Of a stretch of 64,000 bases of DNA, positions 34,367-58,480 are shown in pieces. The DNA comes from Candidatus Omnitrophota bacterium (GTDB lineage: Bacteria; Omnitrophota; Gorgyraeia; Gygaellales; Profunditerraquicolaceae), in contig JBAZKL010000003.1 in the NCBI GenBank assembly GCA_041650835.1, forward strand, positions 163,682 through 227,681. The letters run 5' to 3'. Within the stretch, counting starts at the first letter, position 1, and each line of letters begins with the position of its first letter. Under the pieces are notes generated by a model. The model worked only from the letters and a program-made list of their open reading frames with translations, did not search any database and was not told the DNA's origin. Position numbers and translations under genes: made by a program.

Positions 34367-34392
34367 CTTGTCAAGGGTGATTTCTGTAATTT

Positions 34393-35424: not shown

Positions 35425-35469
35425 AAAAAACTCACCAAGCTATCGACGCTATTAGGTATCTTTTTTTAA

Positions 35470-37446: not shown

Positions 37447-37662
37447 ATGCCAACACTCCTTTGTAATAATAACATTAATAATTATTATTTATCGAGAGAG
37501 AAAACAGCATAAGTAGTAAAATAACCAGATTGTATATAATTATATATAGGTAAGATTATATCTCAGAGCAAAAAGCCGGTCAAGAAAATAAAAAGGAGAG
37601 GCAACAATACCTGGTAAGCAAAGAAGTAACCGGGAATATCTTTACTAAGGGCCATAGTGCGT

Positions 37663-38850: not shown

Positions 38851-39850
38851 TTTTTGCTTTCCTCCTTTTATAAGCGCTCATTAATATTGATTCGATCAAG
38901 TCGCCATAGGTCAGTCCGGCCGCGTAGGCCATGATCGGGAAATTCGATTCCTTAGGATTAAGGCCGGGGAGAGGATTGATCTCCAGGACATAGGGAATAT
39001 TATCCGCGCTGAGGCGGATATCCGTGCGGGAAATATCCAGGCATCCGACTGCCCGATGCGTGCGTAACGCGACTTCTTTGATTTTCTTCTCGGTTTCTTT
39101 GTCCAGGCGCGCCGGGCAATAGAATGTCGGGGTCAACCCCATCTCTTCATTTCCCTGGAATTCTTTCATCCTCCAGGAATAAAAATATTCGCCGCTTTTA
39201 GCGCAGCTGGTAAAATCGATTTCCAGGATAGGCAAGACATCTATCTTACCGTTTTCCAGGATCCCGACGGTAAACTCCCTGCCTTCGATGAACTCCTCCA
39301 CTAACACTTCCTGCTTATAAAGAGAAATGATCTCATGGGCCTTGGCAAAAAGCTCTTTCGGCGAATGGACCACATTTGATTTATTAATACCCTTAGCGGA
39401 ACCCTCGCAATTCGGCTTGAGGATCAAAGGGAAGCGTAACGCCGGGTCTAATTTTTCATTCCCCTTAACTAAGATCTGGAACGCCGGGGTGGGAATATTC
39501 TCCGCTTTGAGGATTTTTTTGGTAAGCGCTTTGTTTAAAGCCAGCGCCAGCGAAAGGGTATTAGATCCGGTATACGGGATATCCAAGTAATCCAGGATCG
39601 CGGGAACCTCGGATTCGCGGAACTTGCCGTGGTTTCCTTCAGCGATATTAAAAACCATGTCCGCGCCATGCTTCTTGAAGAAAGAAAAAAGGTTGGAGCG
39701 CTCCACGTCGATATAATCGACACTATGCCCCCTGGAACGCAGCGCGGAAGTGATCGCATTGATGGTCTCTTCGGAATCAAACTCTGAAAAATAATCCGGA
39801 GGCTTTGTTCCGTCTTCTTTCTTTAAATTACACGTCAGGGTAATTTTCAC
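38843..39850 (-). CDS. ATP-grasp ligase, D-Ala-D-Ala ligase-like
   Basis: Ddl-like N-terminal domain. ATP-grasp motifs ILKPNCEGSAKGI, EEFIEGREFTVGIL and the C-terminal LEINPLPGL. It overlaps kamA by 8 nt. Confidence 0.75.
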   Translation of the reverse strand: MKITLTCNLKKEDGTKPPDYFSEFDSEETINAITSALRSRGHSVDYIDVERSNLFSFFKKHGADMVFNIAEGNHGKFRESEVPAILDYLDIPYTGSNTLSLALALNKALTKKILKAENIPTPAFQILVKGNEKLDPALRFPLILKPNCEGSAKGINKSNVVHSPKELFAKAHEIISLYKQEVLVEEFIEGREFTVGILENGKIDVLPILEIDFTSCAKSGEYFYSWRMKEFQGNEEMGLTPTFYCPARLDKETEKKIKEVALRTHRAVGCLDISRTDIRLSADNIPYVLEINPLPGLNPKESNFPIMAYAAGLTYGDLIESILMSAYKRRKAKNE

Positions 39851-39871
39851 CCTGCCCTTCCTTTCTTATAC

Positions 39872-40864
39872 TTATATAAGATTACACCGCTTCAACGCGC
39901 TTTTCAAGATCCTGCCGATGACCTCGTTATATGAAATACCGAGGGCCTTGGCAACCGCCATAAAGACATCCTCCGAGGAAAGCGACGGCAGCGGATTGAT
40001 CTCTAAAACATAGGGCTTGCCTTTTTCATCAACGCGGAAATCAACCCTGCCGAAATCACGGCATTCAATCGCGTTATACGTGGCAAGCGCCAGACTGGTT
40101 AATTCAGCAGCCAGCTCCGGCTTTATCTTTGCCGGGCAGACATATTCCAGGGCATCCGACTTAATATGCCCGAAGGTATAGAATTTATCATTGAGCTTCA
40201 ATTTACCGTCGATCTTGATCTGCACGATCGGCATCACCTCCGCGGGGTCATTGCCGATAACGGCGACGGTAAATTCTTCCCCGCGAATGAACTCCTCAAC
40301 CAGCGCGGGCTGTTTATAGGTATTGATCACGTAGTCGACCTGCCGCTTTAATTCATCTTTATTCTCCACGCGGGAATTATCGTTCATCCCTTTGGAAGAC
40401 CCTTCAAAGCGCGGTTTAACGATCATCGGGAAATGGGCGTGGTCCATCTCCGCGAATGAGGTATCATCCGGCTTGACCTCAAATGATTTCGGCGTCCTGA
40501 TACCGTCGGCAACGAAGATCTTCTTCGCCATCAGCTTATCGAGCGACAGACCCAGGCTCAAAGCGTCGGCGCCGACAAAAGGAACTCCTGCCATCTCCAG
40601 CAAAAGCGGCACCTGCGATTCACGGTTCCTGCCGGAAACACCTTCCGAGATATTAAAAACAATATCCACTTTCAGATTACTGATATTATCCAGGAGGTTA
40701 GCCACATTCCCGATCTTTTTTACCTTAAACCCTTGAGACTCGATGGCTTTGGCAATAACATCGATAGTCGACGGATGGTCGAATTCGGCGTTCGCGTCCG
40801 GAGGATCTCCCTCCTTGAATTCGTAATCAGATTTTAAGTCGTATGTTAAACCGATGATTTTCAT
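39872..40864 (-). CDS. ATP-grasp ligase, D-Ala-D-Ala ligase-like, second paralog
   Basis: MIVKPRFEGSSKGM, EEFIRGEEFTVAVIG, VDFRVDEKGKPYVLEINPLPSL. It is paralogous to the ATP-grasp gene downstream. Confidence 0.75.
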   Translation of the reverse strand: MKIIGLTYDLKSDYEFKEGDPPDANAEFDHPSTIDVIAKAIESQGFKVKKIGNVANLLDNISNLKVDIVFNISEGVSGRNRESQVPLLLEMAGVPFVGADALSLGLSLDKLMAKKIFVADGIRTPKSFEVKPDDTSFAEMDHAHFPMIVKPRFEGSSKGMNDNSRVENKDELKRQVDYVINTYKQPALVEEFIRGEEFTVAVIGNDPAEVMPIVQIKIDGKLKLNDKFYTFGHIKSDALEYVCPAKIKPELAAELTSLALATYNAIECRDFGRVDFRVDEKGKPYVLEINPLPSLSSEDVFMAVAKALGISYNEVIGRILKSALKRCNLI

Positions 40865-41078
40865 GGCATATAAAAAATAAAGGCTCTTCCGTCCAAGAGC
40901 CTTTTTAAGCTTTTACCTGATTTTTCCAATGTCCTTACCTATCCTCCATAAAATTGGTAAATACCTCATTGATACATTTATTTTTTTATCACATCTGCCG
41001 ACTTTGTCAAGTATTTTCTATCGACGGGAAAGCGGACTTGAGAAAAAATCTTTTCACCGCGGCGAATTATCGACGGAA

Positions 41079-41816
41079 TTACGCCGCGAATTCAACGTTT
41101 CCCCAGCTTGCGAAGCTGTTCCCCAGGACGACAACCACGCCGCTGACCCCTTTAAACGAGCGGGCAAAACCAACTGCCGCAGGCAGGTCTTTTTTTGCGT
41201 GCACGCGGTTGGCGACGGCGGTAGCGACGGCATCGGCAAATGAGGCATCGGCGGCGATAATAACGACGCTGTCGGCGCAACCGAAGCTCAGCGAATGCCC
41301 GAAGGTACCCGTTGATGCGCAAATCCCGATGGGGCGGCCCTGAGGCTTCACCTTAAGAAAAAGTTTCGCCGATACCAAGGAATCCCCCGCGTAAATACCG
41401 AGGATACGGGCGCGGGTTGTTTTCAGAAAAATGTCTCCCCCGTTCTCGATAATAACATCGCGATAGCCCCGGCGCAGAAGGCACTGCCCCAGGAACTTCG
41501 CGATCGCCCCTGCCACCGCCGCCATCGGCCCGACATTCGCCCGGCGAGCGGCCCGGCCCATATCTCTGACGATCGCCGGTGAGCGCGTTTCCACCGCAAG
41601 CGGGGTGAGGCTCGTCAGAAAACGGCGGTCTTTCTGAATATAACTTTCGATTTGCCGCCGGTAGTAAAGGACCTTGCCTTCAATAAAAGCACGATCAACC
41701 GGCTTGTCGGTTAAGATGTGCAAATCGGTTTCCCGCACAATAACTTCAGTCTTGCACAAACCTTCGGCCTTCACCCACTCCCGGTAAAACCGTTTCTGAT
41801 ACTTATTGCTTTTCAT
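41079..41816 (-). CDS. Conserved hypothetical protein, UPF0280-like
   Basis: 245 aa. GPMAAVAGAIAKFLG...ENGGDIF...GICASTGTFGHSLSFGCADSVVIIAADASFADAVATAVANRV is reminiscent of the UPF0280 family. The assignment is from memory only. Confidence 0.4.
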   Translation of the reverse strand: MKSNKYQKRFYREWVKAEGLCKTEVIVRETDLHILTDKPVDRAFIEGKVLYYRRQIESYIQKDRRFLTSLTPLAVETRSPAIVRDMGRAARRANVGPMAAVAGAIAKFLGQCLLRRGYRDVIIENGGDIFLKTTRARILGIYAGDSLVSAKLFLKVKPQGRPIGICASTGTFGHSLSFGCADSVVIIAADASFADAVATAVANRVHAKKDLPAAVGFARSFKGVSGVVVVLGNSFASWGNVEFAA

Positions 41817-42464
41817 TTATTCGTTATTTTCGTTAATCTCTTCTATCTTGACGCCGCAGGAAGCCAAGTCTTTTTTAAGCTGTGCTGTCCCCTGATAGAC
41901 AAACGCCCGGATACCCAGCAAACGGGCCTTCGCCACTAAATCCGCCCGGTCATCGACGTAAAAGGTTTCCGGCGGCGCCACCCCCAGCGCTTTCATTGCT
42001 TGAATATAGATCTGCGGATGAGGCTTCGTCAAGTGGGCTTCAAAAGAAGTAAAGATATCGGGGAAAATGTCAAAAAGCGCGTACTGTTTCTTGATATACT
42101 CAAAATGTAACACATTGGTATTAGAAAGGAGCGCCACAATATATTCCTGCCGCAGCCGCGCCGCTATTTGCGCCGTTGATATATTATCCTGCGTCAAAAA
42201 GAAGATCTCGTTCCATACCGGCTTGAAAGCCTTATAGCTGAGGGAAAGCCGCAGGATCTTTTTTATCTTTGAGAAAAAATCCTGCGGAGAGAGCCTGCCT
42301 TCTTCAAAAGACTTCAGGAGCTTAACCGCCCCGAACACGCGGGAGAAAATTTCCTCGGGCTTTTTGTCCGTGAAAGCGGATATCCTGGAGGCCGCCCGCA
42401 TAGTATCAAAGCTGACCAGGACATTGCCCAGGTCGAAAATAACCGCCTTCAGAGGGGTGCTCAT
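41817..42464 (-). CDS. HAD-superfamily hydrolase
   Basis: Motif I VIFDLGNVLV has the Asp nucleophile in the DxG context. The C-terminal YVDDR(A) is a motif IV-like acidic pair. 215 aa. Confidence 0.75.
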   Translation of the reverse strand: MSTPLKAVIFDLGNVLVSFDTMRAASRISAFTDKKPEEIFSRVFGAVKLLKSFEEGRLSPQDFFSKIKKILRLSLSYKAFKPVWNEIFFLTQDNISTAQIAARLRQEYIVALLSNTNVLHFEYIKKQYALFDIFPDIFTSFEAHLTKPHPQIYIQAMKALGVAPPETFYVDDRADLVAKARLLGIRAFVYQGTAQLKKDLASCGVKIEEINENNE

Positions 42465-42481
42465 AGTATGCTCAACAATAA

Positions 42482-43453
42482 TTAATTATTGGTATCCCGT
42501 GATTTTTTAAATAAGTCGAGGAACCGGTCTTCGTATTCCCGGTAGACATTCCACTTATCCAGTTCAGCTTTTAATTGATGGGCTTTTGAGATATCCGTCT
42601 TTGCGTCAACGAAAAGACTTTCGATCTTTTCTTTCACGGACTGAGGAAGCCTGGTGAGTTGGCTGAGGCTTTTCTTTATCTTTTCGATCTCTTCTTCGTT
42701 AATAGGCGCAGGCGACGAAGGGCCGCCGGCCTTCAAAAAGTCCAGAAGTTTATTGATCTGTTCCTCCACGCCATGGGTTTGTTCAATCAGGCCGGTAAAA
42801 TCTATCCGGAGATTAATGATCTTGCAGAGAGACTCCAGAAGGATAAGAGAAGCACGGGGATTCTCGATCTGGATAGTATAGAGCGGGATCTCCCCTAACA
42901 GGCAGAGGCCGTCCAGGCCTTCGCGTTTTGCCAAGCCTAAAAAGAGGCCGTTCAAACCGCTGATCTGGCCTTCGGATAACACCTGCAGGCCAAGCTTCTT
43001 TAAACCGGCGATAAGCTGCGGCGACGTCGCGGTTAACCAGACATTCGGCGGCTGATTATGATCGATAGGCTGCGGCATGGCGGCAAAGCCGATCACCGTT
43101 TTTACTTTATACGCCTTAGCCAGATTAATTATCCGTTCACAGTATTCTTCGGCCTGCTCTAAATCAGGCTGTGAATCGCTGGCAAAGATGATCAGGTCAT
43201 TTTTACCTGTTTTATTCTTCCAGAAATAGAATTTGTTTTTCGGCAGCTCAGGCAGCCGCAAGATCCCGTCAACGACATTACTTCCCGTCAGATAGAAGAA
43301 GTCTTTCGGTGGGATCTCGGCGAATTCAATAGCCGCGAGTTTTTCAATAAGGTATGTTGCCGCTTTGATCGCGACTTCCCCCATGCCGGGCCATGCCACA
43401 ATTAAATACGGGCTCTTCAGCCGCGGTTTTTTATACACCCTAATACCTTCCAT
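42482..43453 (-). CDS. PAC2-family (proteasome assembly chaperone-like) protein
   Basis: The N-terminal PYLIVAWPGMGEVAIKAATYLIEKL matches the PAC2 signature (LI.G.PG.G.V). 323 aa. Confidence 0.5.
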   Translation of the reverse strand: MEGIRVYKKPRLKSPYLIVAWPGMGEVAIKAATYLIEKLAAIEFAEIPPKDFFYLTGSNVVDGILRLPELPKNKFYFWKNKTGKNDLIIFASDSQPDLEQAEEYCERIINLAKAYKVKTVIGFAAMPQPIDHNQPPNVWLTATSPQLIAGLKKLGLQVLSEGQISGLNGLFLGLAKREGLDGLCLLGEIPLYTIQIENPRASLILLESLCKIINLRIDFTGLIEQTHGVEEQINKLLDFLKAGGPSSPAPINEEEIEKIKKSLSQLTRLPQSVKEKIESLFVDAKTDISKAHQLKAELDKWNVYREYEDRFLDLFKKSRDTNN

Positions 43454-43488
43454 AATATAATCTCCTTAATGAAGCCCAGTACTTAAGG

Positions 43489-44613
43489 CTAAAATTTAAG
43501 ATCTTTTAAGAACCTCTCCAGAACGACCGTCCCCTGATACAGGTTATCCAGCGAAACATATTCATTAATGATATGGGCGCAGCCTTCAGAACCAAAACCC
43601 GTTGCCACCGCGGGAATATGCCTGTCCTGAAAGAAGGTAATGACCGTCGCTCCTTCAGACCCGCAAATCCGCGGGGATACCTTACACTGGCGCATCGCGG
43701 CGGTCAAATATTTTACCAACGGATGCCCTTCATCGATGAGATAGGGTTTTTGGATACCCTCAACTTCTATCGCGAATTTCCGGCTGTGCTTCTTTACAAT
43801 ACTTTTTAACAACCGCAGGATAACTTGAGCGTCTGTCCCCGGTAAAAACCGGAAATCCAGTTCAAATTCACACCAATCGGCGACCACATTTACTTTATCG
43901 CCTCCTTTAATGGTCCCGACATTGATAGTGGGAGGCTGTAAATACCGGTTCTTTCTAAAAGGAATTTTGCTTTTTTTAAGCTCTGAAACTATCCTGACCG
44001 CGGCATCAATAGCGTTATCGCCGCGCCAGGGATAAGCGCCATGGGCCCTTTTGCCTTCAAGCACAACTTTAACGTGCAAAAGGCCTTTCTGCGCTACAAT
44101 AACCTCAAATTCCTCGGAATCAAGCACCACCGCCGCGTCAACTTTTATTATACCCTTTTTAAGCAGCGGAATCAATCCCCACGTAGAACCGCTTTCTTCG
44201 TCGGCTGTGGCAGCCAGTACCAGATTATAATACAAACCCGCCTTATCTTCAACAATACTGTTTATTGCTTCGACGCAGCAGGCAAGATTCCCCTTACAAT
44301 CGGTAGCGCCGATACCATAAAGTTTATTTTGAGCAACCACGCCGGCGAAAGGATCAATTCGCCATTTTCTGCCGGCAGGGACCGTATCTAAATGAGGCGT
44401 GACCAGGAGCGAATGCTTCGCATGTTTAGCCGGTAAATACGCAAGGAGATTAGGGCGGTTTTTCTTAAATTCCACTATTTTCACGCGCAGGCTGAGCTTT
44501 TCCAGGTATGCCTTAAGAAAACAGGCAATTGCCGTTTCATTACCGGGAGGATTTTGAGAATCTATCTTTATTAACGACCGGGTTAGATCTATTAATCGTT
44601 TTTTATTGATCAT
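43489..44613 (-). CDS. M20-family metallopeptidase / deacylase (ArgE/DapE-like)
   Basis: LLVTPHLDTVPAG and YGIGATDCKGNLA are metal-binding motifs of the M20 family. A dimerisation-domain insert is present. 374 aa. Confidence 0.85.
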   Translation of the reverse strand: MINKKRLIDLTRSLIKIDSQNPPGNETAIACFLKAYLEKLSLRVKIVEFKKNRPNLLAYLPAKHAKHSLLVTPHLDTVPAGRKWRIDPFAGVVAQNKLYGIGATDCKGNLACCVEAINSIVEDKAGLYYNLVLAATADEESGSTWGLIPLLKKGIIKVDAAVVLDSEEFEVIVAQKGLLHVKVVLEGKRAHGAYPWRGDNAIDAAVRIVSELKKSKIPFRKNRYLQPPTINVGTIKGGDKVNVVADWCEFELDFRFLPGTDAQVILRLLKSIVKKHSRKFAIEVEGIQKPYLIDEGHPLVKYLTAAMRQCKVSPRICGSEGATVITFFQDRHIPAVATGFGSEGCAHIINEYVSLDNLYQGTVVLERFLKDLKF

Positions 44614-44639
44614 GTTTTTCCTCGGTTATTGTCTCGGTA

Positions 44640-47543
44640 CTAGAACGCGTGGCTCAAACCTATCCAAAAATGCGTATCCTCTTTCGGATCATTGATAGGC
44701 CGGGCGATATCAAGGCGCAGCACCGCCTTTTCCAGAAATCCGGCAATATCAAAATGCAGGCGCAAGCCTAACCCCGCGTCCTTCTTAAAATGAGCGCCTT
44801 CAAAATCGTTATGCCAGGCCTTGGCGATATCAAAAAATCCGACGCCCTGAATTTTATTCAGGCAAAAAACATTGTCCAGGAAATACATTTTCATATCTTT
44901 GGTCAAAGGAAAACGGTACTCCGCCGTTCCTAAAACCATACGCGCCCCCTGGATCGTTTCCCTGCCATACCCCCGCAATCCATCCGCGCCTCCCAAATCA
45001 AAAAGGTCCTTATCTCCCGGGCCTCCCCATCCAACCTTGAGGCGTGTCGCTATTTTCTGTGAAAGCTTCGGCACCAGCAGGCGGTAATTATCCAATTCTA
45101 AACTCGTGCGCCAAAAAGATTCTTTTCCTCCCAGGAAATGTCCGGCAAATTCCTGCTGAGGGGTGAATTTCCAGCCATAATCCGGATCTGCATACGGGCC
45201 GTACCGGCACAAAGAAGCGGCCATGCCGACGATCGATTCATCCGTTTTTCGATAAACGGTATTGCGGGCGTCTTCCGCGCCATTAACAGCGGCCTGTTGA
45301 TCAAGTTTTTGATCCCTTAAAAGATACAAAGTAACATGATCATTAAGGTCAAAAATGCCGTACCGCGCCGGCCATAGTTCTCGCCTGATATAAAGCTTGC
45401 CGCCGGACACATCTTTACGGCGCGTACGGTAATTGCGGTTAAAAACCTCAAGCCCCACGGACACCTGTTTATTGAAAAGGTGGGGCAACTCATAGCCGGC
45501 CGTATATTCCGACTCTTTATCATTAAAATCGTAGAGAGAAGAAAATTTCACCAGCCCATCATAGGGCTTTGCCGCCGAGGCAGCCGCCCCCATCCGCGAC
45601 CCCCGAAGATCAGGGCCGAAAACCACATTATAAGATCCGGCAGGCATCAGGGAAGGGATCTCATAGGCAAAGAAATACCAGGGGACCGGCTTAAGAAAAA
45701 TATGCCGCGGCCAGGAATTGTTTACCCGGTCCACATCCAGGATGATCTTATTATCCGGATCGACCACGACTTGAGAAACCGCCTTGCCGGCATCAAGAGG
45801 TAAAGCTATATCCCGCCCGCGCCCGTCCCACTGAAAAACACTTTGCGTTTGGTCGCGATAAACGACCCTTGCTTCAACCGGCATTTCGATCGAACCGCGG
45901 TTTTCTAAAACAAACGCCCCTTCACCCGACGGCTTCACGGCATAATCGCAGGTTTTCTTGGTCTTCAGCCAATTATTAAAGAATCCGGTCAAGTCTTCGC
46001 CCGATTCCTCATTACAGATCCTCACAAGATCACTCAATGCGAAATTCTTGAACCTGAATTCTTCGGTATAACGCTTCATGATCCGCTCGAACACCCGGCT
46101 GCCGACGAAAGCCTCGAGCATTTCCAAAACAGCGGCGCCCTTGCCGTAGGTCAAGGCGAATATCGATGAGGGCTCCTGAAAGCTCGAAAGGTCGCTTACG
46201 ACCGGCCCATCGAGAGAATTTTTCGCCAGGTACAGGTAACGGGCGACCGTTGAGCCGTGAAATGTAAAATCAGGAATTAGCCACCGTAGCGCCGGCGGCA
46301 AAGTCAGAACGGAGGCGTTCTTCCCGTAAACATGCTCCAAATAACGTAATATCCAATATGAATTCATGCCCTCATCAAGGAACATCTCCCTGTATTCATC
46401 GGAACCGATGATATTATAAAACCATTGATGGCCGGTCTCATGCGATATGAGGAAATTAAAATAGCGCTCCAAAAACCCGGGGACCCGATAAACGCGCGTA
46501 TCAATAAATATAAAACTGGAAGACTGGCACCCGCCGTATCCTAAATAACTCGGGACAATGGAAAAATTCTTATACGGATACGGCCCGAAGCGTTCGGCGT
46601 AAAACCGCATTAATGACGCGGCGTAATCGGCGGCGGAAACCGCTCTTTTTTCGTCGCCTTTAAGATAATACGAATAGATCGTCGCATCGCCATACGCAAG
46701 TTTATGCACTAAAAATGACCTGCTGAGCCCCAATGAAAAGTCCCTCACCGGGAATTCCGTCTCCATAACAAGGGTTTTTGTCCCGTCAGGGTTGTCTGTT
46801 TGGCCTTTTACTAAAGCCGTTGAAGCCACGATCTCATCCCGCGGCAGAGTAAAGGTGACCTTATAATAAGCGGCTTCACTGAAATAAGGCTGGTGATAAA
46901 TATAAAAAGGATAATTATGCCACCCAGATTTATCCACAACGCTTAAGATCGGATACCAGCGGGCAAGGCTGGTGATCTCCCGGTGCCAGCCGAACCTGCC
47001 GTATGCGTGAGGTATCTCGACCTTGAAATCCAAGGTAACCTCTTGAGTATCACCGGGTTTAAGCGGTGAATCAAGCTCAACCTTAAGGATCGTCCGGTCA
47101 TCGCCTTCCACGCGGTAAGCAAGCGCCGAACCCTTCGCGGATACTTTTTCTATTTTTAGATCTCCCCCCTGAAATCCTTCAGGGAAAGGATTCATTTTGA
47201 AATAACCGGCATACCGGTACATGAAACCGATCTCTTTTTTTGTGTACGTGCGGTGAGGATAGATATGAAAATAAAGGGCATCAAGGGGAATGTCGGTGTT
47301 ATTGGTAAACGCGACTTTCTGGCTGGCCGCGATAGTATGATTTTTAGTATCCAACTCGGCGGTAATATCATAGCGGGGGCATTCGGCGGCGTAAGAAAGT
47401 AAGAAATTGAAAACAAAAAGGCAAAAGAAAAACGCAAGAAACAATACAAACCTTACGCTCTTATTCATATCAAAAACTCCTGATTTTCCGGGTGCCCCAG
47501 TCGCCAGTACACCAGTTACTATAACTATGGACCATAGTCTCAA
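44640..47543 (-). CDS. Fusion protein: N-terminal M1-type (aminopeptidase N-like) zinc metallopeptidase domain plus C-terminal Omp85/BamA-type outer-membrane beta-barrel
   Basis: The N-terminal hydrophobic region carries alternative starts (M1 or MNKSVRF). The gluzincin motif is HETGHQWFYNIIGSDEYREMFLDEGMNSYW (HExxH...E). The C-terminal ~350 aa have amphipathic beta-strand periodicity, the Omp85 signature FDLGGADGLRGYG (LGG...LRGY) and a terminal aromatic (...WIGLSHAF). Confidence 0.7.
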   Translation of the reverse strand: MRLWSIVIVTGVLATGAPGKSGVFDMNKSVRFVLFLAFFFCLFVFNFLLSYAAECPRYDITAELDTKNHTIAASQKVAFTNNTDIPLDALYFHIYPHRTYTKKEIGFMYRYAGYFKMNPFPEGFQGGDLKIEKVSAKGSALAYRVEGDDRTILKVELDSPLKPGDTQEVTLDFKVEIPHAYGRFGWHREITSLARWYPILSVVDKSGWHNYPFYIYHQPYFSEAAYYKVTFTLPRDEIVASTALVKGQTDNPDGTKTLVMETEFPVRDFSLGLSRSFLVHKLAYGDATIYSYYLKGDEKRAVSAADYAASLMRFYAERFGPYPYKNFSIVPSYLGYGGCQSSSFIFIDTRVYRVPGFLERYFNFLISHETGHQWFYNIIGSDEYREMFLDEGMNSYWILRYLEHVYGKNASVLTLPPALRWLIPDFTFHGSTVARYLYLAKNSLDGPVVSDLSSFQEPSSIFALTYGKGAAVLEMLEAFVGSRVFERIMKRYTEEFRFKNFALSDLVRICNEESGEDLTGFFNNWLKTKKTCDYAVKPSGEGAFVLENRGSIEMPVEARVVYRDQTQSVFQWDGRGRDIALPLDAGKAVSQVVVDPDNKIILDVDRVNNSWPRHIFLKPVPWYFFAYEIPSLMPAGSYNVVFGPDLRGSRMGAAASAAKPYDGLVKFSSLYDFNDKESEYTAGYELPHLFNKQVSVGLEVFNRNYRTRRKDVSGGKLYIRRELWPARYGIFDLNDHVTLYLLRDQKLDQQAAVNGAEDARNTVYRKTDESIVGMAASLCRYGPYADPDYGWKFTPQQEFAGHFLGGKESFWRTSLELDNYRLLVPKLSQKIATRLKVGWGGPGDKDLFDLGGADGLRGYGRETIQGARMVLGTAEYRFPLTKDMKMYFLDNVFCLNKIQGVGFFDIAKAWHNDFEGAHFKKDAGLGLRLHFDIAGFLEKAVLRLDIARPINDPKEDTHFWIGLSHAF

Positions 47544-47599
47544 GTCTCAAGTCGCAGGTCGCATGATACATGTTGTCGATGGTTCATGGAAGAAAGGAT

Positions 47600-47756
47600 A
47601 ACTTTACGGTTTTTGCTTTAAGCGCACATTTGAAAACTTTCGGCACAGGGGTTTCATCTACAGTGCGCAAAGATTTACGGCGAGTTGAAGCACGCTCTTT
47701 ACGTAAGTCTATAGCGTAAACGAGCCGTAAACTGTAGCGCACGGCGAAAGTTTTTT
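47600..47756 (+). repeat. ~157-nt structured intergenic element, family 1, copy C
   Basis: It matches copy B (34393-34549) nearly exactly over ~140 of 157 nt. The hairpin architecture and terminal gaaagtttttt are the same. Its flanks contain GCGACCTG/CAGGTCGC motifs, as do the flanks of copy B. Confidence 0.75.
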
Positions 47757-47798
47757 GTGCGCGTAAGCAAAAAGCGTAAAGTTTGCCCATGCCATGGA

Positions 47799-48449
47799 CT
47801 ATTTTGCAACCTGTGACTTTCCCAAGGGACAACACTCACACCGGGGCTTCCTCTTCAAGCAAAACTCCTTGCCTGCCCGCACCAAAAGAGCATGAAATTC
47901 ATTATAAAGCGGCGCATCGGGTTTAAGCCTGCTCATACATAAAAACTGTACGGTATGGTAACCGTCATTTTCCGCTATCAGCTTATGCCGGAGGAATATC
48001 CTTTTTGTGTACGCGTCGACGACAAAAACAGGTTTTTGGAACGCGTAAAGCAAGATCGCATCCGCGGTTTCCGGCCCGACCCCATTGACCAAAAGCAACT
48101 CCTCCCGCAAAAGAGGGGAGGCGACAACCGACATTTTTTCCAAATCCCCCCCATAACGGGAAAACAGGTATTCCAAGAAATTCTTCAAACGGTGAGCCTT
48201 AATATTATAATATCCCGCGGGAACAATTATTGCCGCTAATTTTTTCTCAGGCAAACGGTAGAGCTTCCCGGGAGACAATACCTTCTTTACTTTTAAATTA
48301 TCAAGCGCCCGTTCGACATTTACCCAACTTGTATTTTGCGTCAGGATCGCCCCGACGATAACTTCCCAGGGATCATCTGCCGGCCACCAGGCTTGCGGCC
48401 CGAAATGCTTGTATAACTTGTTATAAATTGAACGAAGAGTCGAAGTCAT
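47799..48449 (-). CDS. nth: Endonuclease III-family DNA glycosylase (HhH-GPD with [4Fe-4S] cluster)
   Basis: HhH-GPD LLLVNGVGPETADAILLYAF with the catalytic Asp context (VVDAY). The C-terminus has CLKRKPRCECCPLGKSQ (Cx6CxxCx5C-like). Confidence 0.85.
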   Translation of the reverse strand: MTSTLRSIYNKLYKHFGPQAWWPADDPWEVIVGAILTQNTSWVNVERALDNLKVKKVLSPGKLYRLPEKKLAAIIVPAGYYNIKAHRLKNFLEYLFSRYGGDLEKMSVVASPLLREELLLVNGVGPETADAILLYAFQKPVFVVDAYTKRIFLRHKLIAENDGYHTVQFLCMSRLKPDAPLYNEFHALLVRAGKEFCLKRKPRCECCPLGKSQVAK

Positions 48450-48451
48450 AT

Positions 48452-48524
48452 ACTCGGTATTCGGTACTCGGTGATCGGTGTTCGACCAGAATAGTCGCCG
48501 ATAACCGAGTACCGAATACCGAGT
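48452..48524. promoter_or_regulatory. Large near-perfect inverted repeat (28-bp arms, 17-nt loop) spanning the nth translation-initiation region
   Basis: actcggtattcggtactcggtgatcggtg (48452-48480) against gccgataaccgagtaccgaataccgagt (48497-48524). The left arm begins 3 nt upstream of the nth ATG. The upstream gene stops at 48533. Confidence 0.65.
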
Positions 48525-48532
48525 ACCGACAA

Positions 48533-50485
48533 CTAATTCTCAAGTTCCAAAGGATTGTAATTATAATACGCGAACAACGTATATACCGTTGCCGAAACAG
48601 CGCCTGTCTTTCTTCCCGCCGGAGTAGTCCATCCATGGCCGGTATCAACGGATGCGGCGGAAGCATACGGCAGGCATCCTGCCCCCTGGCCGGAGGGAGA
48701 AGCGCTGGAAATGATCAACGTGCACAGATCAACCATATATTCGTTTGCTTTTTGATCATAGACCTTTGCCTTGCCGAGCATATCTTTTTTCTTATAATAA
48801 TCCGCCATTATTTTGAATGACAGTATCATTTGAGCGGTCCATTCGGTCGAGATCACTCCTCCCCGGGAGAGATGCCGCTGCGGGGCAAAATCAAAGCCTT
48901 TGATCTTGATCGTTTCTCCTGACGGGCCTATCGAAGGGACCTCAACCACGCAATTTTCTTCGGCAAATTCAATTATTTTATCGGGCTGCATCGCGTTTTC
49001 CGCCAATTTTTCAGGCCCCAGCGCCGCGATCGCCCATGCGTACGTATCGGTAGCGATCGTTGAATCCCCCTTACCGCGGATGATCGGGATATCGACTTTA
49101 TCATAAATGTGCCCGAGCAACCAACCAAACACCTTGTCCCGCGCGTCCGCGTAATGCTGTTTCTTGGTCATTGTATACAGCATATTAAAGAACGCGTAAG
49201 CGTCCAGGTTATGCTCGGTAGAATACCAACTGATATTAGGGCCGCCGCGGATACCTCCTTGCCCGTCCTGTCCCTGTAAAACGATCATGACCTGAGCGAT
49301 CTCTTCGGCTATCTTCATATACCGGGTATCGGACGTTTTCTTCGTATAGTGGAGTATCGCGATCCCCAGCCAGATATTAGGGCCGCTGTGCACGATATAT
49401 TCCGCGGGGCTGCCGTCTTTAGCATCATAGGCATTGACAAAAAGCCCTTCCCTTTTCTTGGCTTTGTGCGCATAAAACTCTAATGTCTTCTGAGCACGCT
49501 CATAATCGGAAAAATTCGTGAAAGCCTGGATTACCAGGGACTGGTCATAGGTAAACGCCCAGCCGTCGACATTCGCGTCGCCCTCAAAGCTCATGACCAG
49601 GCCTGTCCGGGGATTTTGATGCAAGCTGAGCCATTGATACATTTTATTAAAATTTTCTTTCTGTAACGTCGCTTTTTTCTCATCCAGGCGCAGTAATTCT
49701 TCCGTCACCGAAGTCTCACGGTGCTGCAGGTCGATCAACTTCTCCTGGAGCGGGGCCTTTTGCTGCCTCAACTGCTCGATCAATTTTTTAAGCTCCTCTA
49801 CTTTCTTGATAGACTTGGCCTCTTCCAATTTAACGCCGTCTTCAAGAGAATTCTTTTCATCCTCCACGGTCTTAATACGCACCTGTAACGCTTCGATCTT
49901 AAGCTGCAGGTCCTCTTTATCCTTATTGATGTTCGTGATCTTTTGCTTGGCGATGATCGATTCCTGCAAGATATTAACCAACTGGCTGATCAAAGTCTTG
50001 TTGCCCTGGATAAGCTTGGCATTAACATAGCTGTTAACAACGAGCGCCGCGGAAAAAACCAGGATTATCGAATAAACTACCGGAACGAATAATTTTTTCA
50101 TCCAGACATACCGCATGAGCCGGGTATTCGCGTTGCGATCGATAGAATCATAATTTAAACCAATAACGTACTTATTGGCGTTGACCGCGGCGCCTTTTAC
50201 CCAGGAAACGCTTGCCCGGGCAAAAACCGGATGCCTCCCTAAAGGGCTTTCGATCTCTAAGATGACCCGGCTCGATTGGCTCTTTATGGTCTGGATCAAA
50301 TCGGGAGAAAGATTATTAACGCGCAGGCACAATCCGCCCTTTCCTATATTATTCGTAAAACCCTGCAGCCAACCGGAGAGGAACGCCTGCTCATCGGCGG
50401 CAAGCACCAGCCTAAACTGGACAGGAAAGACCGAATCAAGCCTCACATATTTTCTACGGTTGAGGGCTTCGTGATCTTTTTCCAT
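48533..50485 (-). CDS. PilZ-domain membrane protein with coiled coil and C-terminal (alpha/alpha)6 glycoside-hydrolase-like domain
   Basis: N-terminal PilZ motifs RRKYVR and NIGKGG. A TM segment (LFVPVVYSIILVFSAALVV) is followed by ~150 aa of coiled coil. The C-terminal ~330 aa (WAFTYDQSLVIQAF...GPNIWLGIAILHY...TEHNLDAYAFF...DTYAWAIAAL) have helical-hairpin repeat character, as in GH8 or epimerase-like toroids. Confidence 0.55.
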   Translation of the reverse strand: MEKDHEALNRRKYVRLDSVFPVQFRLVLAADEQAFLSGWLQGFTNNIGKGGLCLRVNNLSPDLIQTIKSQSSRVILEIESPLGRHPVFARASVSWVKGAAVNANKYVIGLNYDSIDRNANTRLMRYVWMKKLFVPVVYSIILVFSAALVVNSYVNAKLIQGNKTLISQLVNILQESIIAKQKITNINKDKEDLQLKIEALQVRIKTVEDEKNSLEDGVKLEEAKSIKKVEELKKLIEQLRQQKAPLQEKLIDLQHRETSVTEELLRLDEKKATLQKENFNKMYQWLSLHQNPRTGLVMSFEGDANVDGWAFTYDQSLVIQAFTNFSDYERAQKTLEFYAHKAKKREGLFVNAYDAKDGSPAEYIVHSGPNIWLGIAILHYTKKTSDTRYMKIAEEIAQVMIVLQGQDGQGGIRGGPNISWYSTEHNLDAYAFFNMLYTMTKKQHYADARDKVFGWLLGHIYDKVDIPIIRGKGDSTIATDTYAWAIAALGPEKLAENAMQPDKIIEFAEENCVVEVPSIGPSGETIKIKGFDFAPQRHLSRGGVISTEWTAQMILSFKIMADYYKKKDMLGKAKVYDQKANEYMVDLCTLIISSASPSGQGAGCLPYASAASVDTGHGWTTPAGRKTGAVSATVYTLFAYYNYNPLELEN

Positions 50486-50488
50486 AAA

Positions 50489-52897
50489 TTATTTTTTCCT
50501 CTCTACGACCACTTTCTGTTTAATTTTCTGGGCAAGATTCTCATATACCTTCTTAAAATCGGCATATTCTTCCTGCGGAATGAGCGTTTTTTTTAATTCA
50601 ATCGACTGTTTAAAAGATATCCTCTTATTTTTATAGGTATACCCCGCGCTAAAACGAAACCAGCTATTATCCTCCGCGATATTACCGGGGAGGAACTTCA
50701 CGTTAAAATCAGGAGGCATCTGAATTTCCGTCACCACCTCTTTAGTATTCAGGAAACCGAAATCAAGCGGATACCTGCGGCGACTTTGAGCGACTAAGGA
50801 GAGGTCCAAATATGCCAATTGAGGCAGGATACGCAGAGCACCGGCGATGGTCGCGTACTCGCTGCCGCTAAAGGCATATTCAAGCAATAAAGGTTTATTC
50901 GGATCATCGGCATTCTTAATATCATATTTACCTAAACGCGCCCCCACGGATATTTCCTGGATCCTGGCTTCCAGGTGCTGGCGGATCAATTCCGGCGGCG
51001 TATATAAAACCCAATACCGCTGCATCTGGTTATAGACCCCGGAAACCGCGACCGTTTTCTCTCCCGTAATACGGTCATCTCCTTGCACCGTAAGCGATAA
51101 ACCCTGGCTGATCTGATTATGCCCGGCCTCATAGAGCGGAGTCGTAAGGACTTCAAACCCTTGTTCTTTGCATAATAAAACCGTCCGCGCCTGGTCATCC
51201 TGGGGCAAATCGCCAAACGCGCATGTTTCCGCGGTGGGATCGACAAAAACTTTTTTTCCTTCCCATACCACCGCCGCGATAGCATGATTAAAAAGTATCG
51301 AAGGGAAATCCTCCCGCGCGTTATAAGCATCTTTTGTCGCGATAAGCACCGGATAGGCCTCAATGCCGGCCTGCCGCAGCATCGTCACTAACAAAACCGC
51401 CTTATCCTTGCAGTCGCCGTATTTATTCTGAAAGATATCCGCTGCTTTATGCGGTTCATAACCGGCCTGCCCGTATTCAACCGCAACATAACGGATCTTC
51501 TGCGCGGCAAAGCCGCACAACGCGCGGATCTTCTCCTCATCGGATACGGCAGAAGCGGTTAATTCTTTTACCTTGTTCCTGATCGAATCATCGGCCGTGA
51601 TCTTGTCCCGGGCGAGCGGCCACCACCAATCGTAAATCCCTTTCCACGACTCAAAGGTGGAGAACAACAGCGATGGATTGATCTCTGAAGCAGGCGGCAT
51701 ATCGGACTCGGGTATCACCTGCGGGATGTCCCTGAATTGCCATGAATAGACGGCTGAGCCTTTTTCTTCCCGGACAGAAGGATCTAAAGAAACTCCAAAA
51801 TCATTATATTTTTCGTTGATCTTTTTAATATTGAGTACTGTATCCTTCGGCACGGTAATGGAAAAATTCGCCCGGATCACCGGCTGGGAAGTTTGCAGGG
51901 GATACGGGAAAGCGAAATCTTTTTTGTTCACCAGCTGGTTACGCACGATCTTTACTTTGTATTCGATGATCGCTCCTTCCGTTATTTCCGGGAAAGAAAT
52001 TATAAAGATCCGCGCGTTGCTGTAAAGCGGGAAATTAAGGTATTTCGAGACATCGCGCATATGGCGGCTGCCGACATCAACGAGAGTACCGTCGGGCTTA
52101 ATGGTCCGCGCGTATTCCACCTCCAGCTTTTCATATGTTGAATCATACTCGATGTGCGCCTCTGAAAATTCATCCTTGCCCCGTTCATTTAAGATCTTCA
52201 CCAGATAATGCTCAGAGGAAACCTGGGTATTTTCCGCAGATACTACGACCGCTTCATCGGCAAGCAGGATCAACGCTCCTGCCTGAGGATATTTCTCCGA
52301 CGCAGGCGCGCCAAGCAGGATCGCATTGATCTCGGGGCTGACATCTTTAATGTGCAGTCCTTCCACCTGTTTCTCTATAAGCCGCATTCGCTCCCGCGCA
52401 AAGAAGGCAAAGCTTCCCGGGACGGGCATCAGTACACCGGGTATCTTTTTATACGCTTCAAGGGCGCTGTCAAAAAGATTGAGCTTTTCACAGGTCAAAC
52501 CGCGGTAATATAAATACTCGGCATCATCCTTCAACTCATTCTGATCAAAGACCGCCAAGGCATCGGTATAGCTGCCCGCCTTATAGTATGAGATCGCCAG
52601 CCACTTCCGCGCCCCGGGGGCATCCACGCGCTTAAATTCTTCCGCCGCCTCGGCGTATTTCCCCTGACGGTAATACAACTCTCCCAATTCAAAGCCTATT
52701 CTCCGGGGATCGGCCCCCTGAGAGAGCAATCGCTTATACAGGACAACCGCTTTCCGGTAATCAGCTTCGGAAACCTGCGCGTAAATACGGGCCTGCTCCA
52801 ACTCCGATTTCTGAGGGGTACAGCCGCATAAAGCTGAAAACACAAGAACAAATACAAAAGCGGATATAGATCTATTATTAATAATTTGATTATTCAT
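50489..52897 (-). CDS. Large lipoprotein with N-terminal TPR repeats and central transglutaminase-like cysteine-protease core (DUF3857-like architecture)
   Basis: Lipobox LCGC. TPR-like YRKAVVLYKRL...GELYYRQGKYAEAAEEFKRV. The transglutaminase-core motif KYGDCKDKAVLLVTMLRQAGIEAYPVL carries the catalytic Cys. 802 aa. Confidence 0.7.
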   Translation of the reverse strand: MNNQIINNRSISAFVFVLVFSALCGCTPQKSELEQARIYAQVSEADYRKAVVLYKRLLSQGADPRRIGFELGELYYRQGKYAEAAEEFKRVDAPGARKWLAISYYKAGSYTDALAVFDQNELKDDAEYLYYRGLTCEKLNLFDSALEAYKKIPGVLMPVPGSFAFFARERMRLIEKQVEGLHIKDVSPEINAILLGAPASEKYPQAGALILLADEAVVVSAENTQVSSEHYLVKILNERGKDEFSEAHIEYDSTYEKLEVEYARTIKPDGTLVDVGSRHMRDVSKYLNFPLYSNARIFIISFPEITEGAIIEYKVKIVRNQLVNKKDFAFPYPLQTSQPVIRANFSITVPKDTVLNIKKINEKYNDFGVSLDPSVREEKGSAVYSWQFRDIPQVIPESDMPPASEINPSLLFSTFESWKGIYDWWWPLARDKITADDSIRNKVKELTASAVSDEEKIRALCGFAAQKIRYVAVEYGQAGYEPHKAADIFQNKYGDCKDKAVLLVTMLRQAGIEAYPVLIATKDAYNAREDFPSILFNHAIAAVVWEGKKVFVDPTAETCAFGDLPQDDQARTVLLCKEQGFEVLTTPLYEAGHNQISQGLSLTVQGDDRITGEKTVAVSGVYNQMQRYWVLYTPPELIRQHLEARIQEISVGARLGKYDIKNADDPNKPLLLEYAFSGSEYATIAGALRILPQLAYLDLSLVAQSRRRYPLDFGFLNTKEVVTEIQMPPDFNVKFLPGNIAEDNSWFRFSAGYTYKNKRISFKQSIELKKTLIPQEEYADFKKVYENLAQKIKQKVVVERKK

Positions 52898-52924
52898 ATG
52901 AAATTATACTGAGCTGTAACGTTA

Positions 52925-53045
52925 ATAATAAAGTTTAAAGGTTAAATAACAAAGGAATTTCAAAGAATAAAGGTTTAATTTTAAAATTTAACCTTTTTAC
53001 TTTAATCTTCCTTTGATATTTAGTCTTTAATTTTTAACCTTGTAT
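52925..53045. repeat. AT-rich palindromic intergenic element, family 2, copy Y
   Basis: ttaaataacaaaggaatttcaaagaataaaggtttaattttaaaatttaacctttttactttaatcttcctttgatatttag is homologous to 30855-30975. It lies immediately downstream of the pabC stop and upstream of the transglutaminase-like lipoprotein gene. Confidence 0.6.
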
Positions 53046-53079
53046 ATTGACACGCCTGACAATCAAAATTATATCTCTT

Positions 53080-57004: not shown

Positions 57005-57007
57005 GAA

Positions 57008-57478: not shown

Positions 57479-57479
57479 T

Positions 57480-58474: not shown

Positions 58475-58480
58475 CGTGTT

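What the first reader, a model, noticed from the sequence alone, without database searches (positions are those of the whole stretch)
44640..47543. M1 aminopeptidase-like domain fused to an Omp85-type beta-barrel: a possible type Vd-like (PlpD-style) surface or exported peptidase
- The N-terminal ~550 aa carry the gluzincin signature HETGHQWF...(18 aa)...E, preceded by a beta-rich domain as in aminopeptidase N.
- The C-terminal ~350 aa carry the Omp85/D15 hallmark LGG...LRGY and end in an aromatic residue.
- Omp85 barrels fused to enzymatic passengers are known for patatin lipases (PlpD, type Vd).
- An M1 peptidase passenger would be a new cargo for that architecture. Alternatively it could be a BamA-like protein with a peptidase module replacing POTRA domains.
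Basis: partly seen in the sequence, partly recalled or inferred. Interest (0 to 1): 0.75.

Follow-up and report, generated by a model that had tools for sequence, protein, structure and literature searches.

The report
M1 peptidase fused to Omp85 barrel
This is a real gene, conserved across the uncultured phylum Omnitrophota, that joins a zinc peptidase directly to an outer-membrane barrel of the BamA/TamA type with no POTRA domain; the peptidase most likely sits under the outer membrane rather than being secreted, and no paper I could find describes this design.

Summary
One minus-strand gene (44640..47468, 942 aa from the likely ATG start) encodes these parts in order:
- a signal peptide;
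- M1 zinc-peptidase domains I-III, with H343-E344-xx-H347, E366 and Y441 invariant in 56 homologues;
- a conserved 43-residue linker;
- a 16-stranded Omp85 barrel with the L6 LRGY motif and a C-terminal Phe.

It is not a mis-assembly. More than 120 full-length homologues (47-87% identity) carry both Pfam domains. In addition, 294 species-representative genomes, nearly all Omnitrophota, encode a relative.

The "type Vd / exported" interpretation is only partly supported.
- There is no POTRA domain and no patatin domain.
- The barrel topology puts the N-terminal module at the periplasmic end of strand 1.
- The type Vd prototype PlpD has itself been shown to keep its enzyme domain in the periplasm.

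My best reading is a periplasm-facing, outer-membrane-anchored M1 peptidase in which the barrel takes the sequence position of M1 helical domain IV. The aminopeptidase GAMEN motif is replaced by GGxQS, so specificity is probably altered.

More distant versions occur in Gemmataceae, Latescibacterota, KSB1, Zixibacteria and WOR-3.

I rate it a new variant of a known kind (Omp85 proteins with non-POTRA enzyme domains). It is moderately interesting, and its function is untested.

The parts
44640..47468 (-). Whole coding sequence (942 aa plus stop) of the M1 peptidase-Omp85 fusion. The mechanical ORF extends to TTG 47543.
   Evidence: ORF list. AGGAG 8 nt upstream of ATG 47468. Homologues of 942 aa cover 100%.
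47477..47481 (-). Shine-Dalgarno-like AGGAG
   Evidence: Read directly from the sequence.
47388..47468 (-). Predicted Sec signal peptide (aa 1-27, MNKSVRFVLFLAFFFCLFVFNFLLSYA), with probable cleavage after SYA
   Evidence: Basic n-region, hydrophobic helix 3-23 of low pLDDT. It is the least conserved region (0.26). Homologues have equivalent ...FA/..A ends. Assignment is by inspection; no signal-peptide predictor was run.
46665..47375 (-). M1 domain I (N-terminal beta domain, aa 32-268)
45966..46652 (-). M1 catalytic (thermolysin-like) domain II, aa 273-501
46521..46535 (-). GGCQS, the equivalent of the GAMEN exopeptidase motif (aa 312-316), with Gln in place of the Glu that binds the substrate amino terminus
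   Evidence: Aligned to GAMEN of puromycin-sensitive aminopeptidase. Gln in 49 of 56 homologues and Glu in 6.
46371..46442 (-). Zinc-binding and catalytic motif HETGH-x18-E (H343, E344, H347, E366)
   Evidence: Translation. All four residues are invariant in 56 sequences.
46146..46148 (-). Catalytic Tyr441 (transition-state stabiliser of the M1 family), within ALTYGKG
   Evidence: Aligned to the SYSKGA Tyr of PSA. Invariant.
45762..45944 (-). Small beta-sandwich (aa 509-569), equivalent to M1 domain III
   Evidence: Six strands in the model. Foldseek alignments to four-domain M1 enzymes span about 580-600 columns, that is domains I-III.
45633..45761 (-). Conserved linker (aa 570-612): DxDRxNNxWPR ... 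KPVPxYFFAYEIP. It is not a POTRA domain.
   Evidence: Mean column identity 0.66, with invariant N583 and Y598. No Pfam hit at E<=10. The motif is shared with distant relatives (hhalign).
44643..45632 (-). 16-stranded Omp85-type beta-barrel (aa 613-942), ending in the beta-signal-like ...WIGLSHAF
45339..45377 (-). Periplasmic turn T3 (aa 698-710, LWPARYGIFDLND), the most conserved barrel segment and a candidate docking surface for the peptidase module
   Evidence: Mean column identity 0.81. pLDDT is below 50 in the barrel-only model and about 87-90 in the full-length model. The docking role is inferred.
44943..45020 (-). Loop L6 (aa 817-842) with the Omp85 signature LRGY (L831, R832, G833 invariant)
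   Evidence: It lies between strands 11 and 12.
44823..44840 (-). Strand 13 motif GFFDIA. The family consensus is FFDxG, the inner-wall partner of L6 in Omp85 proteins.
   Evidence: The motif's role is taken from PMC4490367 (abstract).

Best explanation
The gene encodes an outer-membrane protein made in four steps.
1. A Sec signal peptide takes it to the periplasm.
2. The C-terminal 330 residues fold into a 16-stranded Omp85 (BamA/TamA-type) barrel. The cell's BAM machinery presumably inserts it, using the C-terminal aromatic beta-signal.
3. The N-terminal 570 residues form a zinc peptidase of family M1 (domains I, II and III) with all catalytic residues intact.
4. Strand 1 of an Omp85 barrel begins at the periplasmic face and there is no POTRA domain or pore-spanning helix. 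The peptidase therefore most likely stays in the periplasm, docked rigidly under the barrel through the conserved linker and periplasmic turn T3.

In the sequence the barrel occupies the place of the helical domain IV that caps the active site in classical M1 aminopeptidases. The GAMEN glutamate that grips the substrate's free amino terminus is a glutamine.

I therefore expect an open-cleft peptidase working at the inner face of the outer membrane. Candidate substrates are longer peptides or unfolded envelope proteins, for envelope proteostasis or peptide scavenging, rather than a strict cytosolic-type aminopeptidase.

Shown: the architecture, the conservation, the intact catalytic residues, the Omp85 fold and the lack of POTRA.
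Inferred: the periplasmic location, the rigid docking and the substrate class.
For: Domains and catalytic residues:
- Both domains score above the Pfam cut-offs.
- M1 catalytic residues H343, E344, H347, E366 and Y441 are invariant in 56 homologues at 47-87% identity.

Structure:
- The full-length AlphaFold model has mean pLDDT 90.2 and pTM 0.88. It shows M1 domains I-III, a short structured linker and 16 strands.
- L6 (LRGY) lies between strands 11 and 12. Odd-to-even connections are therefore extracellular and strand 1 starts on the periplasmic side.
- No POTRA is detected.

Conservation pattern:
- Periplasmic turns (mean identity 0.63, T3 0.81) and the linker (0.66) are more conserved than extracellular loops other than L6 (0.54).
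- T3 is confident only when the peptidase module is present in the model.

Precedent and distribution:
- PlpD's patatin domain is periplasmic and the Omp85 scaffold has been reused for new functions (PMC11116518).
- Heinz & Lithgow listed other non-POTRA Omp85 classes (PMC4104836).
- The fusion is conserved across the phylum: 294 genomes.
Against: - I could not read the model coordinates or the predicted aligned error. The side of the barrel on which the peptidase is modelled, and the direction its active site faces, were therefore not seen directly.
- An N-terminal passenger joined to strand 1 is also the connectivity of classical autotransporters, so topology alone does not exclude surface display.
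- The difference in T3 confidence between the two models may only reflect alignment depth (56 against 15 sequences).
- The gene neighbourhood gives no functional hint; the neighbours are housekeeping genes.
- No expression, localisation or activity data exist.
Confidence: 0.6

Rival explanations
1. Surface-displayed or released peptidase. The M1 module would be exported through, or alongside, its own barrel during assembly, in the manner of type V secretion. It would then digest extracellular proteins or peptides for nutrition or for attacking prey or host cells.
For: - The passenger-linker-barrel order is that of autotransporters.
- Globular enzymes, including the aminopeptidase AaaA, are known type Va passengers (PMC3426542 and PMC6555100).
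- Many Omnitrophota are proposed to be predatory or parasitic (PMC10066038).
- The extracellular loops other than L4 and L6 are short, so the barrel might be less occluded than BamA.
Against: - The barrel is a 16-stranded Omp85 type, not a 12-stranded autotransporter barrel, and no autotransporter family was hit.
- The 43-residue linker contains only short secondary-structure elements and no long pore-spanning helix.
- The lid-lock motifs (L6 LRGY, strand 13 FFDxG) that plug Omp85 lumens are conserved.
- Every N-terminal Omp85 domain located experimentally so far is periplasmic, including PlpD's (PMC11116518).
- Periplasmic turns are more conserved than surface loops.
Confidence: 0.2
2. A BamA or TamA replacement: the organism's outer-membrane protein insertase, in which a peptidase has taken over the substrate-handling role of the POTRA domains.
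For: - The barrel is closest to the BamA, TamA and Sam50 barrels and keeps their signature motifs.
- The family is phylum-wide and well conserved.
Against: - The BamA equivalog model TIGR03303 scores 35.5 bits against a cut-off of 297.
- All known BamA and TamA proteins carry POTRA domains (PMC11116518 abstract).
- There is no neighbourhood link to bam, tam, skp or lpx genes.
- From general knowledge, diderm phyla carry a canonical BamA. This was not checked here for Omnitrophota.
Confidence: 0.07
3. A catalytically dead scaffold: the M1 module is a binding or structural domain, as in TAF2, and the protein is simply an outer-membrane protein with a large periplasmic domain.
For: - The GAMEN glutamate is lost in 49 of 56 members.
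Against: The zinc ligands, the general base E344 and Tyr441 are invariant over sequences that are only 47% identical. They are retained in the aligned distant relatives (one search finds Peptidase_M1 in all of them). Such conservation is not expected without catalysis.
Confidence: 0.05
4. An assembly chimera of two separate genes.
For: None was found.
Against: The same full-length fusion occurs on more than 120 independent contigs from different sources, in 80 genome loci and in distant lineages. GC content is continuous across the junction.
Confidence: 0.01

Closest known systems
PlpD / FplA (patatin-like Omp85 proteins, 'type Vd')
   Same: One polypeptide carries an N-terminal hydrolytic enzyme and a C-terminal 16-stranded Omp85 barrel. 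By analogy, the enzyme is probably held under the outer membrane (PMC11116518).
   Different: - The cargo is an M1 zinc peptidase, not a patatin phospholipase.
- There is no POTRA domain between enzyme and barrel.
- Nothing is known about dimerisation.
- The host lineages differ (Omnitrophota and other candidate phyla).
Non-POTRA Omp85 classes of Heinz & Lithgow 2014 ('Metallo' PF00149-Omp85, WD40-Omp85, noNterm)
   Same: An Omp85 barrel whose N-terminal region is not POTRA. The authors raised the same open question of whether the enzyme domain is periplasmic or exported (PMC4104836).
   Different: The N-terminal domain here is Peptidase_M1 (PF01433), which is not among their ten subfamilies. 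I did not test whether the barrels are specifically related.
BamA / TamA / Sam50 barrels
   Different: There are no POTRA domains. The extracellular loops are shorter. It fails the BamA equivalog model. Insertase activity is unknown.
M1 aminopeptidases (PepN, tricorn factor F3, ERAP1/IRAP, LTA4H) and the two-domain M1 of Deinococcus radiodurans (PDB 6a8z)
   Same: The fold of domains I-III, HExxH-x18-E, and the catalytic Tyr.
   Different: The GAMEN motif is GGxQS. Helical domain IV is absent and a membrane barrel follows domain III. The protein is secreted and membrane-anchored rather than cytosolic.
AaaA of Pseudomonas aeruginosa (type Va autotransporter aminopeptidase) and BepA (periplasmic M48 protease acting at BAM)
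   Same: These are functional analogies only: a peptidase tied to the outer membrane for peptide nitrogen scavenging (AaaA, PMC3426542) or for quality control of outer-membrane proteins (BepA, from my own knowledge).
   Different: The peptidase families (M28, M48) and the membrane attachment differ. There is no homology to this protein beyond being zinc enzymes.

Membership tests
Peptidase family M1 (gluzincin) | HExxH followed 18 residues later by the Glu zinc ligand | tested here: met
   HETGH...E at aa 343-366. The residues are invariant in 56 homologues.
Peptidase family M1 (gluzincin) | Profile match above the curated threshold, and the fold of the N-terminal beta domain plus the thermolysin-like domain | tested here: met
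   [not shown]
Peptidase family M1 (gluzincin) | Catalytic Tyr downstream of the zinc site | tested here: met
   Y441 aligns with the Tyr of PSA and is invariant.
Peptidase family M1 (gluzincin) | GxMEN exopeptidase motif, whose Glu binds the substrate alpha-amino group | tested here: not met
   The motif reads GGCQS here. Gln is present in 49 of 56 members and Glu in 6. The protein belongs to the M1 fold family, but aminopeptidase specificity cannot be assumed.
Omp85 superfamily | 16-stranded C-terminal beta-barrel matching the Omp85 profile | tested here: met
   [not shown]
Omp85 superfamily | L6 loop (V/L)RG(F/Y) tip and the inner-wall FxDxG motif on strand 13 | tested here: met
   L831, R832 and G833 are invariant. 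FFDxG is the family consensus, though the window protein itself reads FFDIA.
Omp85 superfamily | [quoted passage not shown] | tested here: not met
   No PF07244 hit at E<=1 on the whole protein or at E<=10 on aa 500-620. None is listed in the precomputed Pfam domains of the 120 listed homologues. The model has no beta-alpha-alpha-beta-beta unit. POTRA-less classes of Omp85 proteins are, however, recognised (PMC4104836).
BamA (outer membrane protein assembly factor) | Equivalog-level profile match with five POTRA domains | tested here: not met
   TIGR03303 scores 35.5 bits against a cut-off of 297.15, and only the barrel matches.
Type Vd secretion (PlpD/FplA) | Patatin-like (alpha/beta hydrolase) lipase passenger | tested here: not met
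   The N-terminal module is M1 and there is no patatin hit. Definition taken from PMC6555100.
Type Vd secretion (PlpD/FplA) | A single POTRA domain between passenger and barrel | tested here: not met
Type Vd secretion (PlpD/FplA) | Passenger translocated to the cell surface or released | not testable with these tools
   This needs localisation experiments. The feature is now disputed for PlpD itself (PMC11116518).
Type Va classical autotransporter | 12-stranded C-terminal barrel with an alpha-helical linker in the pore | tested here: not met
   The model has 16 strands and the linker has no long helix. No autotransporter family was among the Pfam hits.

The most novel reading that the evidence does not exclude
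The barrel may be more than an anchor; it could be a working partner of the peptidase. I see two versions.

(a) The Omp85 barrel keeps its ability to capture beta-signals or unfolded outer-membrane proteins at its strand 1 seam. It then feeds them to the peptidase docked at its periplasmic mouth. That would be a single-chain quality-control protease built on the BamA scaffold.

(b) The barrel conducts peptides across the outer membrane and the peptidase trims them as they emerge. That would be an import-and-digest device suited to very small scavenging or predatory cells.

In either version, the barrel standing in the sequence position of M1 domain IV would mean the membrane pore itself forms the lid of the active-site chamber.
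Probability: 0.15. Interest if true: 0.8.

Novelty: new variant of a known kind. Interest (0 to 1): 0.55.

Why it matters
Omp85 proteins are the universal machines that build outer membranes, and they were long thought always to pair a barrel with POTRA domains. PlpD recently showed that the scaffold can be reused to hold an enzyme under the membrane.

This family would be a second, independent and much more widespread example with a different enzyme class. It is conserved across Omnitrophota, and related forms occur in Gemmataceae and several candidate phyla of the FCB group.

It offers a natural test case for two questions:
- what an Omp85 barrel does when it has no POTRA domain;
- how an M1 peptidase works when its capping domain is replaced by a membrane pore.

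It also shows that automatic annotation as "M1 family aminopeptidase" hides an outer-membrane protein whose aminopeptidase motif is in fact altered.

Tried and rejected
- Model coordinates: I looked for them in order to see which face of the barrel the peptidase occupies. Only FASTA files are exposed, so location rests on strand topology and conservation.
- AFDB search: a Foldseek search of afdb50 for the same architecture with organism names was not possible, because the library is unavailable.
I used the precomputed Pfam columns instead.
- Barrel-only model: it came out mediocre (pLDDT 74, pTM 0.51). It was good enough to hit TamA and BamA by Foldseek, but I did not use it for fine geometry.
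- Gene neighbourhood across 81 loci: only partial synteny with housekeeping genes was found (HhH-GPD glycosylase, aminotransferase, AsnC, UPF0047, Era, PfkB, and a Ste24-like M48 peptidase in 19 loci). There is no outer-membrane biogenesis, transporter or secretion operon. Context therefore adds nothing to function.
- Second Omp85 or BamA gene: a search of the window and all fetched loci with the barrel HMM found only truncated orthologues. This covers far too little of each genome to decide whether a canonical BamA coexists.
- Literature searches: queries were Omp85 + Peptidase_M1; Omp85 + aminopeptidase + Omnitrophica; Omp85 + 'M1 family'; Omp85 + domain architecture + metallopeptidase + POTRA; Omnitrophica + BamA + diderm; plus full-text term searches of two Omnitrophota genome papers. 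No description of this fusion was found.
- Mis-assembly: rejected.
- Lipoprotein anchoring: rejected, because the Cys in the signal peptide is not in a lipobox context (by inspection).
Full report
**Observation.**
- The window carries an uninterrupted minus-strand ORF at 44640..47543 (967 aa from the farthest TTG).
- The biologically likely start is ATG 47468. It has an AGGAG 8 nt upstream, it yields a 942-aa protein with a typical signal peptide, and it matches the length and full coverage of the closest homologues. All residue numbers below use this 942-aa version.
- Pfam finds Peptidase_M1 (80.9 bits, cut-off 27.7) and Omp85 PF01103 (67.5 bits, cut-off 24) and nothing else of note.
- NCBIfam agrees. 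It gives partial aminopeptidase N and LTA4H hits on the front half. On the back half it gives Omp85_fam and BamA hits that lie far below their equivalog cut-offs.
- GC content is continuous across the junction.

**The fusion is real and conserved.**
- A search of 5.8 billion proteins returned 419 hits. The best 120 are all 899-1003 aa, cover 96-100% of the query at 46-87% identity, and all carry PF01433 plus PF01103 with no POTRA. Where named, they are "M1 family aminopeptidase" or "BamA/TamA family outer membrane protein" from Candidatus Omnitrophota.
- Among one genome per species, 294 genomes encode a relative. The 80 best loci align down to 38% identity. All but six, which are cut off at contig ends, align nearly end to end.
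- Most of the 80 are labelled Omnitrophota. About 23 are labelled "uncultured Planctomycetales/Planctomycetia", one is labelled Deltaproteobacteria and two carry no phylum label. The set includes Ca. Gygaella obscura and a complete 3.36-Mb chromosome.

**Anatomy.** With a 56-sequence alignment, AlphaFold gives mean pLDDT 90.2 and pTM 0.88. The parts in order are:
- a signal-peptide helix (3-23);
- a beta domain (32-268);
- a helical catalytic domain (273-501);
- a six-stranded beta-sandwich (509-569);
- a 43-residue linker with only short secondary-structure elements (570-612);
- sixteen beta-strands (613-941).

Structural comparison supports these assignments.
- Foldseek against the PDB superposes about 580-600 columns on IRAP, ERAP1/2 and tricorn factor F3, which corresponds to M1 domains I, II and III.
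- A barrel-only profile finds Fusobacterium BamA (1e-8) and TamA in the PDB.

The barrel is therefore of the BamA/TamA type, not the TpsB type. In the sequence it follows M1 domain III, exactly where classical M1 enzymes have helical domain IV.

**No POTRA.**
- No POTRA profile hit appears on the whole protein.
- None appears on residues 500-620 even at E<=10.
- None is listed in the precomputed Pfam domains of the 120 listed homologues.
- The model shows no beta-alpha-alpha-beta-beta unit.
- The inter-domain segment is instead a family-specific, strongly conserved linker, DxDRxNNxWPR...KPVPxYFFAYEIP.

**Catalytic competence and specificity.**
- H343, E344, H347, E366 and Y441 are invariant in all 56 aligned sequences. 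That argues for a working zinc peptidase.
- The GAMEN exopeptidase motif, aligned through puromycin-sensitive aminopeptidase, reads GGCQS here. The family pattern is GG-x-Q-S, with Gln in 49 of 56 members and Glu in 6.
- In M1 enzymes that Glu binds the free amino terminus of the substrate (established knowledge of the family, not tested here).
- With the Glu replaced and the capping domain IV absent, strict aminopeptidase behaviour should not be assumed.

- The LRGY loop (L6) lies between strands 11 and 12. Connections from odd to even strands are therefore extracellular, and strand 1 rises from the periplasm, as in all Omp85 structures. The N-terminal module is tethered at the periplasmic rim.
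- Periplasmic turns (mean column identity 0.63) and the linker (0.66) are more conserved than the extracellular loops other than L6 (0.54). Turn T3 (LWPAxYGLxDxND) is the most conserved barrel segment at 0.81.
- T3 is modelled confidently only in the full-length model. That fits a docking surface for the peptidase, although the two models differ in alignment depth.
- The high pTM also implies a fixed inter-domain arrangement.
- PlpD, the prototype of "type Vd secretion", has been shown experimentally to keep its patatin domain in the periplasm. The authors argue that a folded domain cannot be pushed through a folded Omp85 barrel (PMC11116518).
- Against this, passenger-linker-barrel is also the autotransporter order, and I could not inspect the coordinates.
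- I put periplasmic location at about 0.6-0.7 and surface display at about 0.2.

**Most likely mechanism.**
- Sec export and signal peptidase I cleavage after SYA.
- BAM-dependent insertion of the barrel via the C-terminal ...WxGxxxxF signal.
- The M1 module remains docked under the barrel and cleaves peptides or unfolded polypeptides at the inner face of the outer membrane.
- Whether the barrel is only an anchor or an active partner (substrate capture at the seam, or a peptide conduit) is open. The conserved lid-lock motifs (L6 LRGY, strand 13 FFDxG) show it is under selection as a true Omp85 barrel.
- The neighbourhood does not help. Genes around it in the window are an M20 peptidase, PAC2, a HAD hydrolase, an HhH-GPD glycosylase, a PilZ protein and a TPR-transglutaminase protein. 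The neighbours conserved across 81 loci are housekeeping genes.

**Comparison with known systems.**
- It works like PlpD/FplA in the sense of an enzyme fused to an Omp85 barrel. It is not a member of type Vd, because it has no patatin domain and no POTRA (definition from PMC6555100).
- It is not BamA.
- It belongs with the non-POTRA Omp85 classes recognised by Heinz & Lithgow (WD40, the PF00149 "Metallo" class, noNterm). An M1 class is not among their ten subfamilies (PMC4104836).
- Nine full-text searches, and term searches within two Omnitrophota genome papers, found no description of an M1-Omp85 fusion.
- Database annotation treats it as an ordinary M1 aminopeptidase.

**Wider distribution.** An exhaustive HMMER search of 1.84 billion representatives returned 15,309 hits at E<=0.001. 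Among the best 150:
- About 35 have the M1 part plus a barrel matching this family's barrel HMM, down to about 27-31% identity. One such cluster is from Gemmataceae in the Planctomycetota.
- A further 40 proteins of about 870-1040 aa share the M1 part and a C-terminal region that Pfam does not recognise. That region is homologous to this linker plus barrel by profile-profile comparison: probability 99.1%, E 5.5e-19, over 293 columns that include the DRxNN linker and LRGY.
- Named members of this second group come from Latescibacterota, KSB1, Zixibacteria and WOR-3.

The architecture is therefore widespread in poorly studied phyla and largely invisible to standard domain annotation.

**Verdict.**
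- It is a new variant of a known kind: an Omp85 protein with a non-POTRA enzymatic N-terminal domain. It is conserved across a phylum and undescribed in the searchable literature. Location and function are inferred only.
- Interest is 0.55. It would surprise and interest Omp85 and M1 specialists and is directly testable. It extends a concept that PlpD already opened rather than founding a new one.

Noticed in passing
Proteins P0158-P0269 (not in the window); named examples are the P0163 cluster (Latescibacterota) and P0337 (KSB1): A second, larger group of 870-1040-aa proteins has the same M1 front half and a C-terminal region of about 350 aa that Pfam leaves unannotated. That region is homologous to this linker plus Omp85 barrel (hhalign probability 99.1%, E 5.5e-19) and often ends in Phe. 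It occurs in Latescibacterota, KSB1, Zixibacteria and WOR-3, so the fusion is far more widespread than Pfam architectures show.
   Followed up: partly
P0152 cluster, 982 aa: An M1 + Omp85 fusion (Pfam-positive) with a longer inter-domain spacer occurs in Gemmataceae (Planctomycetota), at only about 30% identity to the window protein.
   Followed up: partly
Hits, about 575-665 aa (for example P0308, P0359, P0412): Barrel-less relatives that cover about 60-65% of the query occur in Zixibacteria, Bipolaricaulota and Fraserbacteria. They could be the soluble ancestors, or derivatives, of the fused form.
   Followed up: no
window 1..64000: Almost every ORF of 150 aa or more (49 of 53) lies on the minus strand. 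The four plus-strand ORFs overlap minus-strand genes and look like shadows. Cumulative GC skew falls steadily across 40-52 kb.
   Followed up: no
window 4148..5824, 18999..20765, 25271..27067 (all minus strand): Two PilB/GspE-type secretion ATPases (T2SSE + MshEN) and a PilM-PilN fusion protein, that is type IV pilus or type II secretion-like machinery, lie upstream in the same strand run.
   Followed up: no
window 5842..9507 (-) and 27407..28933 (-): A 1221-aa ORF and a 508-aa ORF have no Pfam family at E<=1e-5.
   Followed up: no
window 48533..50485 (-) and 50489..52897 (-): Upstream of the fusion gene, beyond the adjacent HhH-GPD gene, are two proteins. One is a 650-aa protein with an N-terminal PilZ domain and a long region Pfam leaves unannotated. 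The other is an 802-aa TPR-DUF3857-transglutaminase-DUF3858 protein. Both are conserved upstream in a subset of related loci (clusters 9 and 13).
   Followed up: partly
window 42482..43453 (-) and 43489..44613 (-): Directly downstream are an M20-family metallopeptidase (26 nt after the stop codon) and a PAC2 (proteasome-assembly-chaperone-like) protein. They are conserved downstream in about 20 related loci (clusters 19 and 20). No functional link is evident.
   Followed up: partly
related loci, for example L021:4829-5944: A Ste24/HtpX-like M48 membrane metallopeptidase lies about 2 kb upstream of the fusion gene in 19 of 81 loci, but not in the window.
   Followed up: no
window 44823..44840 (-): The strand 13 Omp85 motif reads FFDIA in the window protein and its two closest relatives, whereas the rest of the family has FFDxG. 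This is a small local departure in an otherwise conserved signature.
   Followed up: no
[not shown]
   Followed up: no
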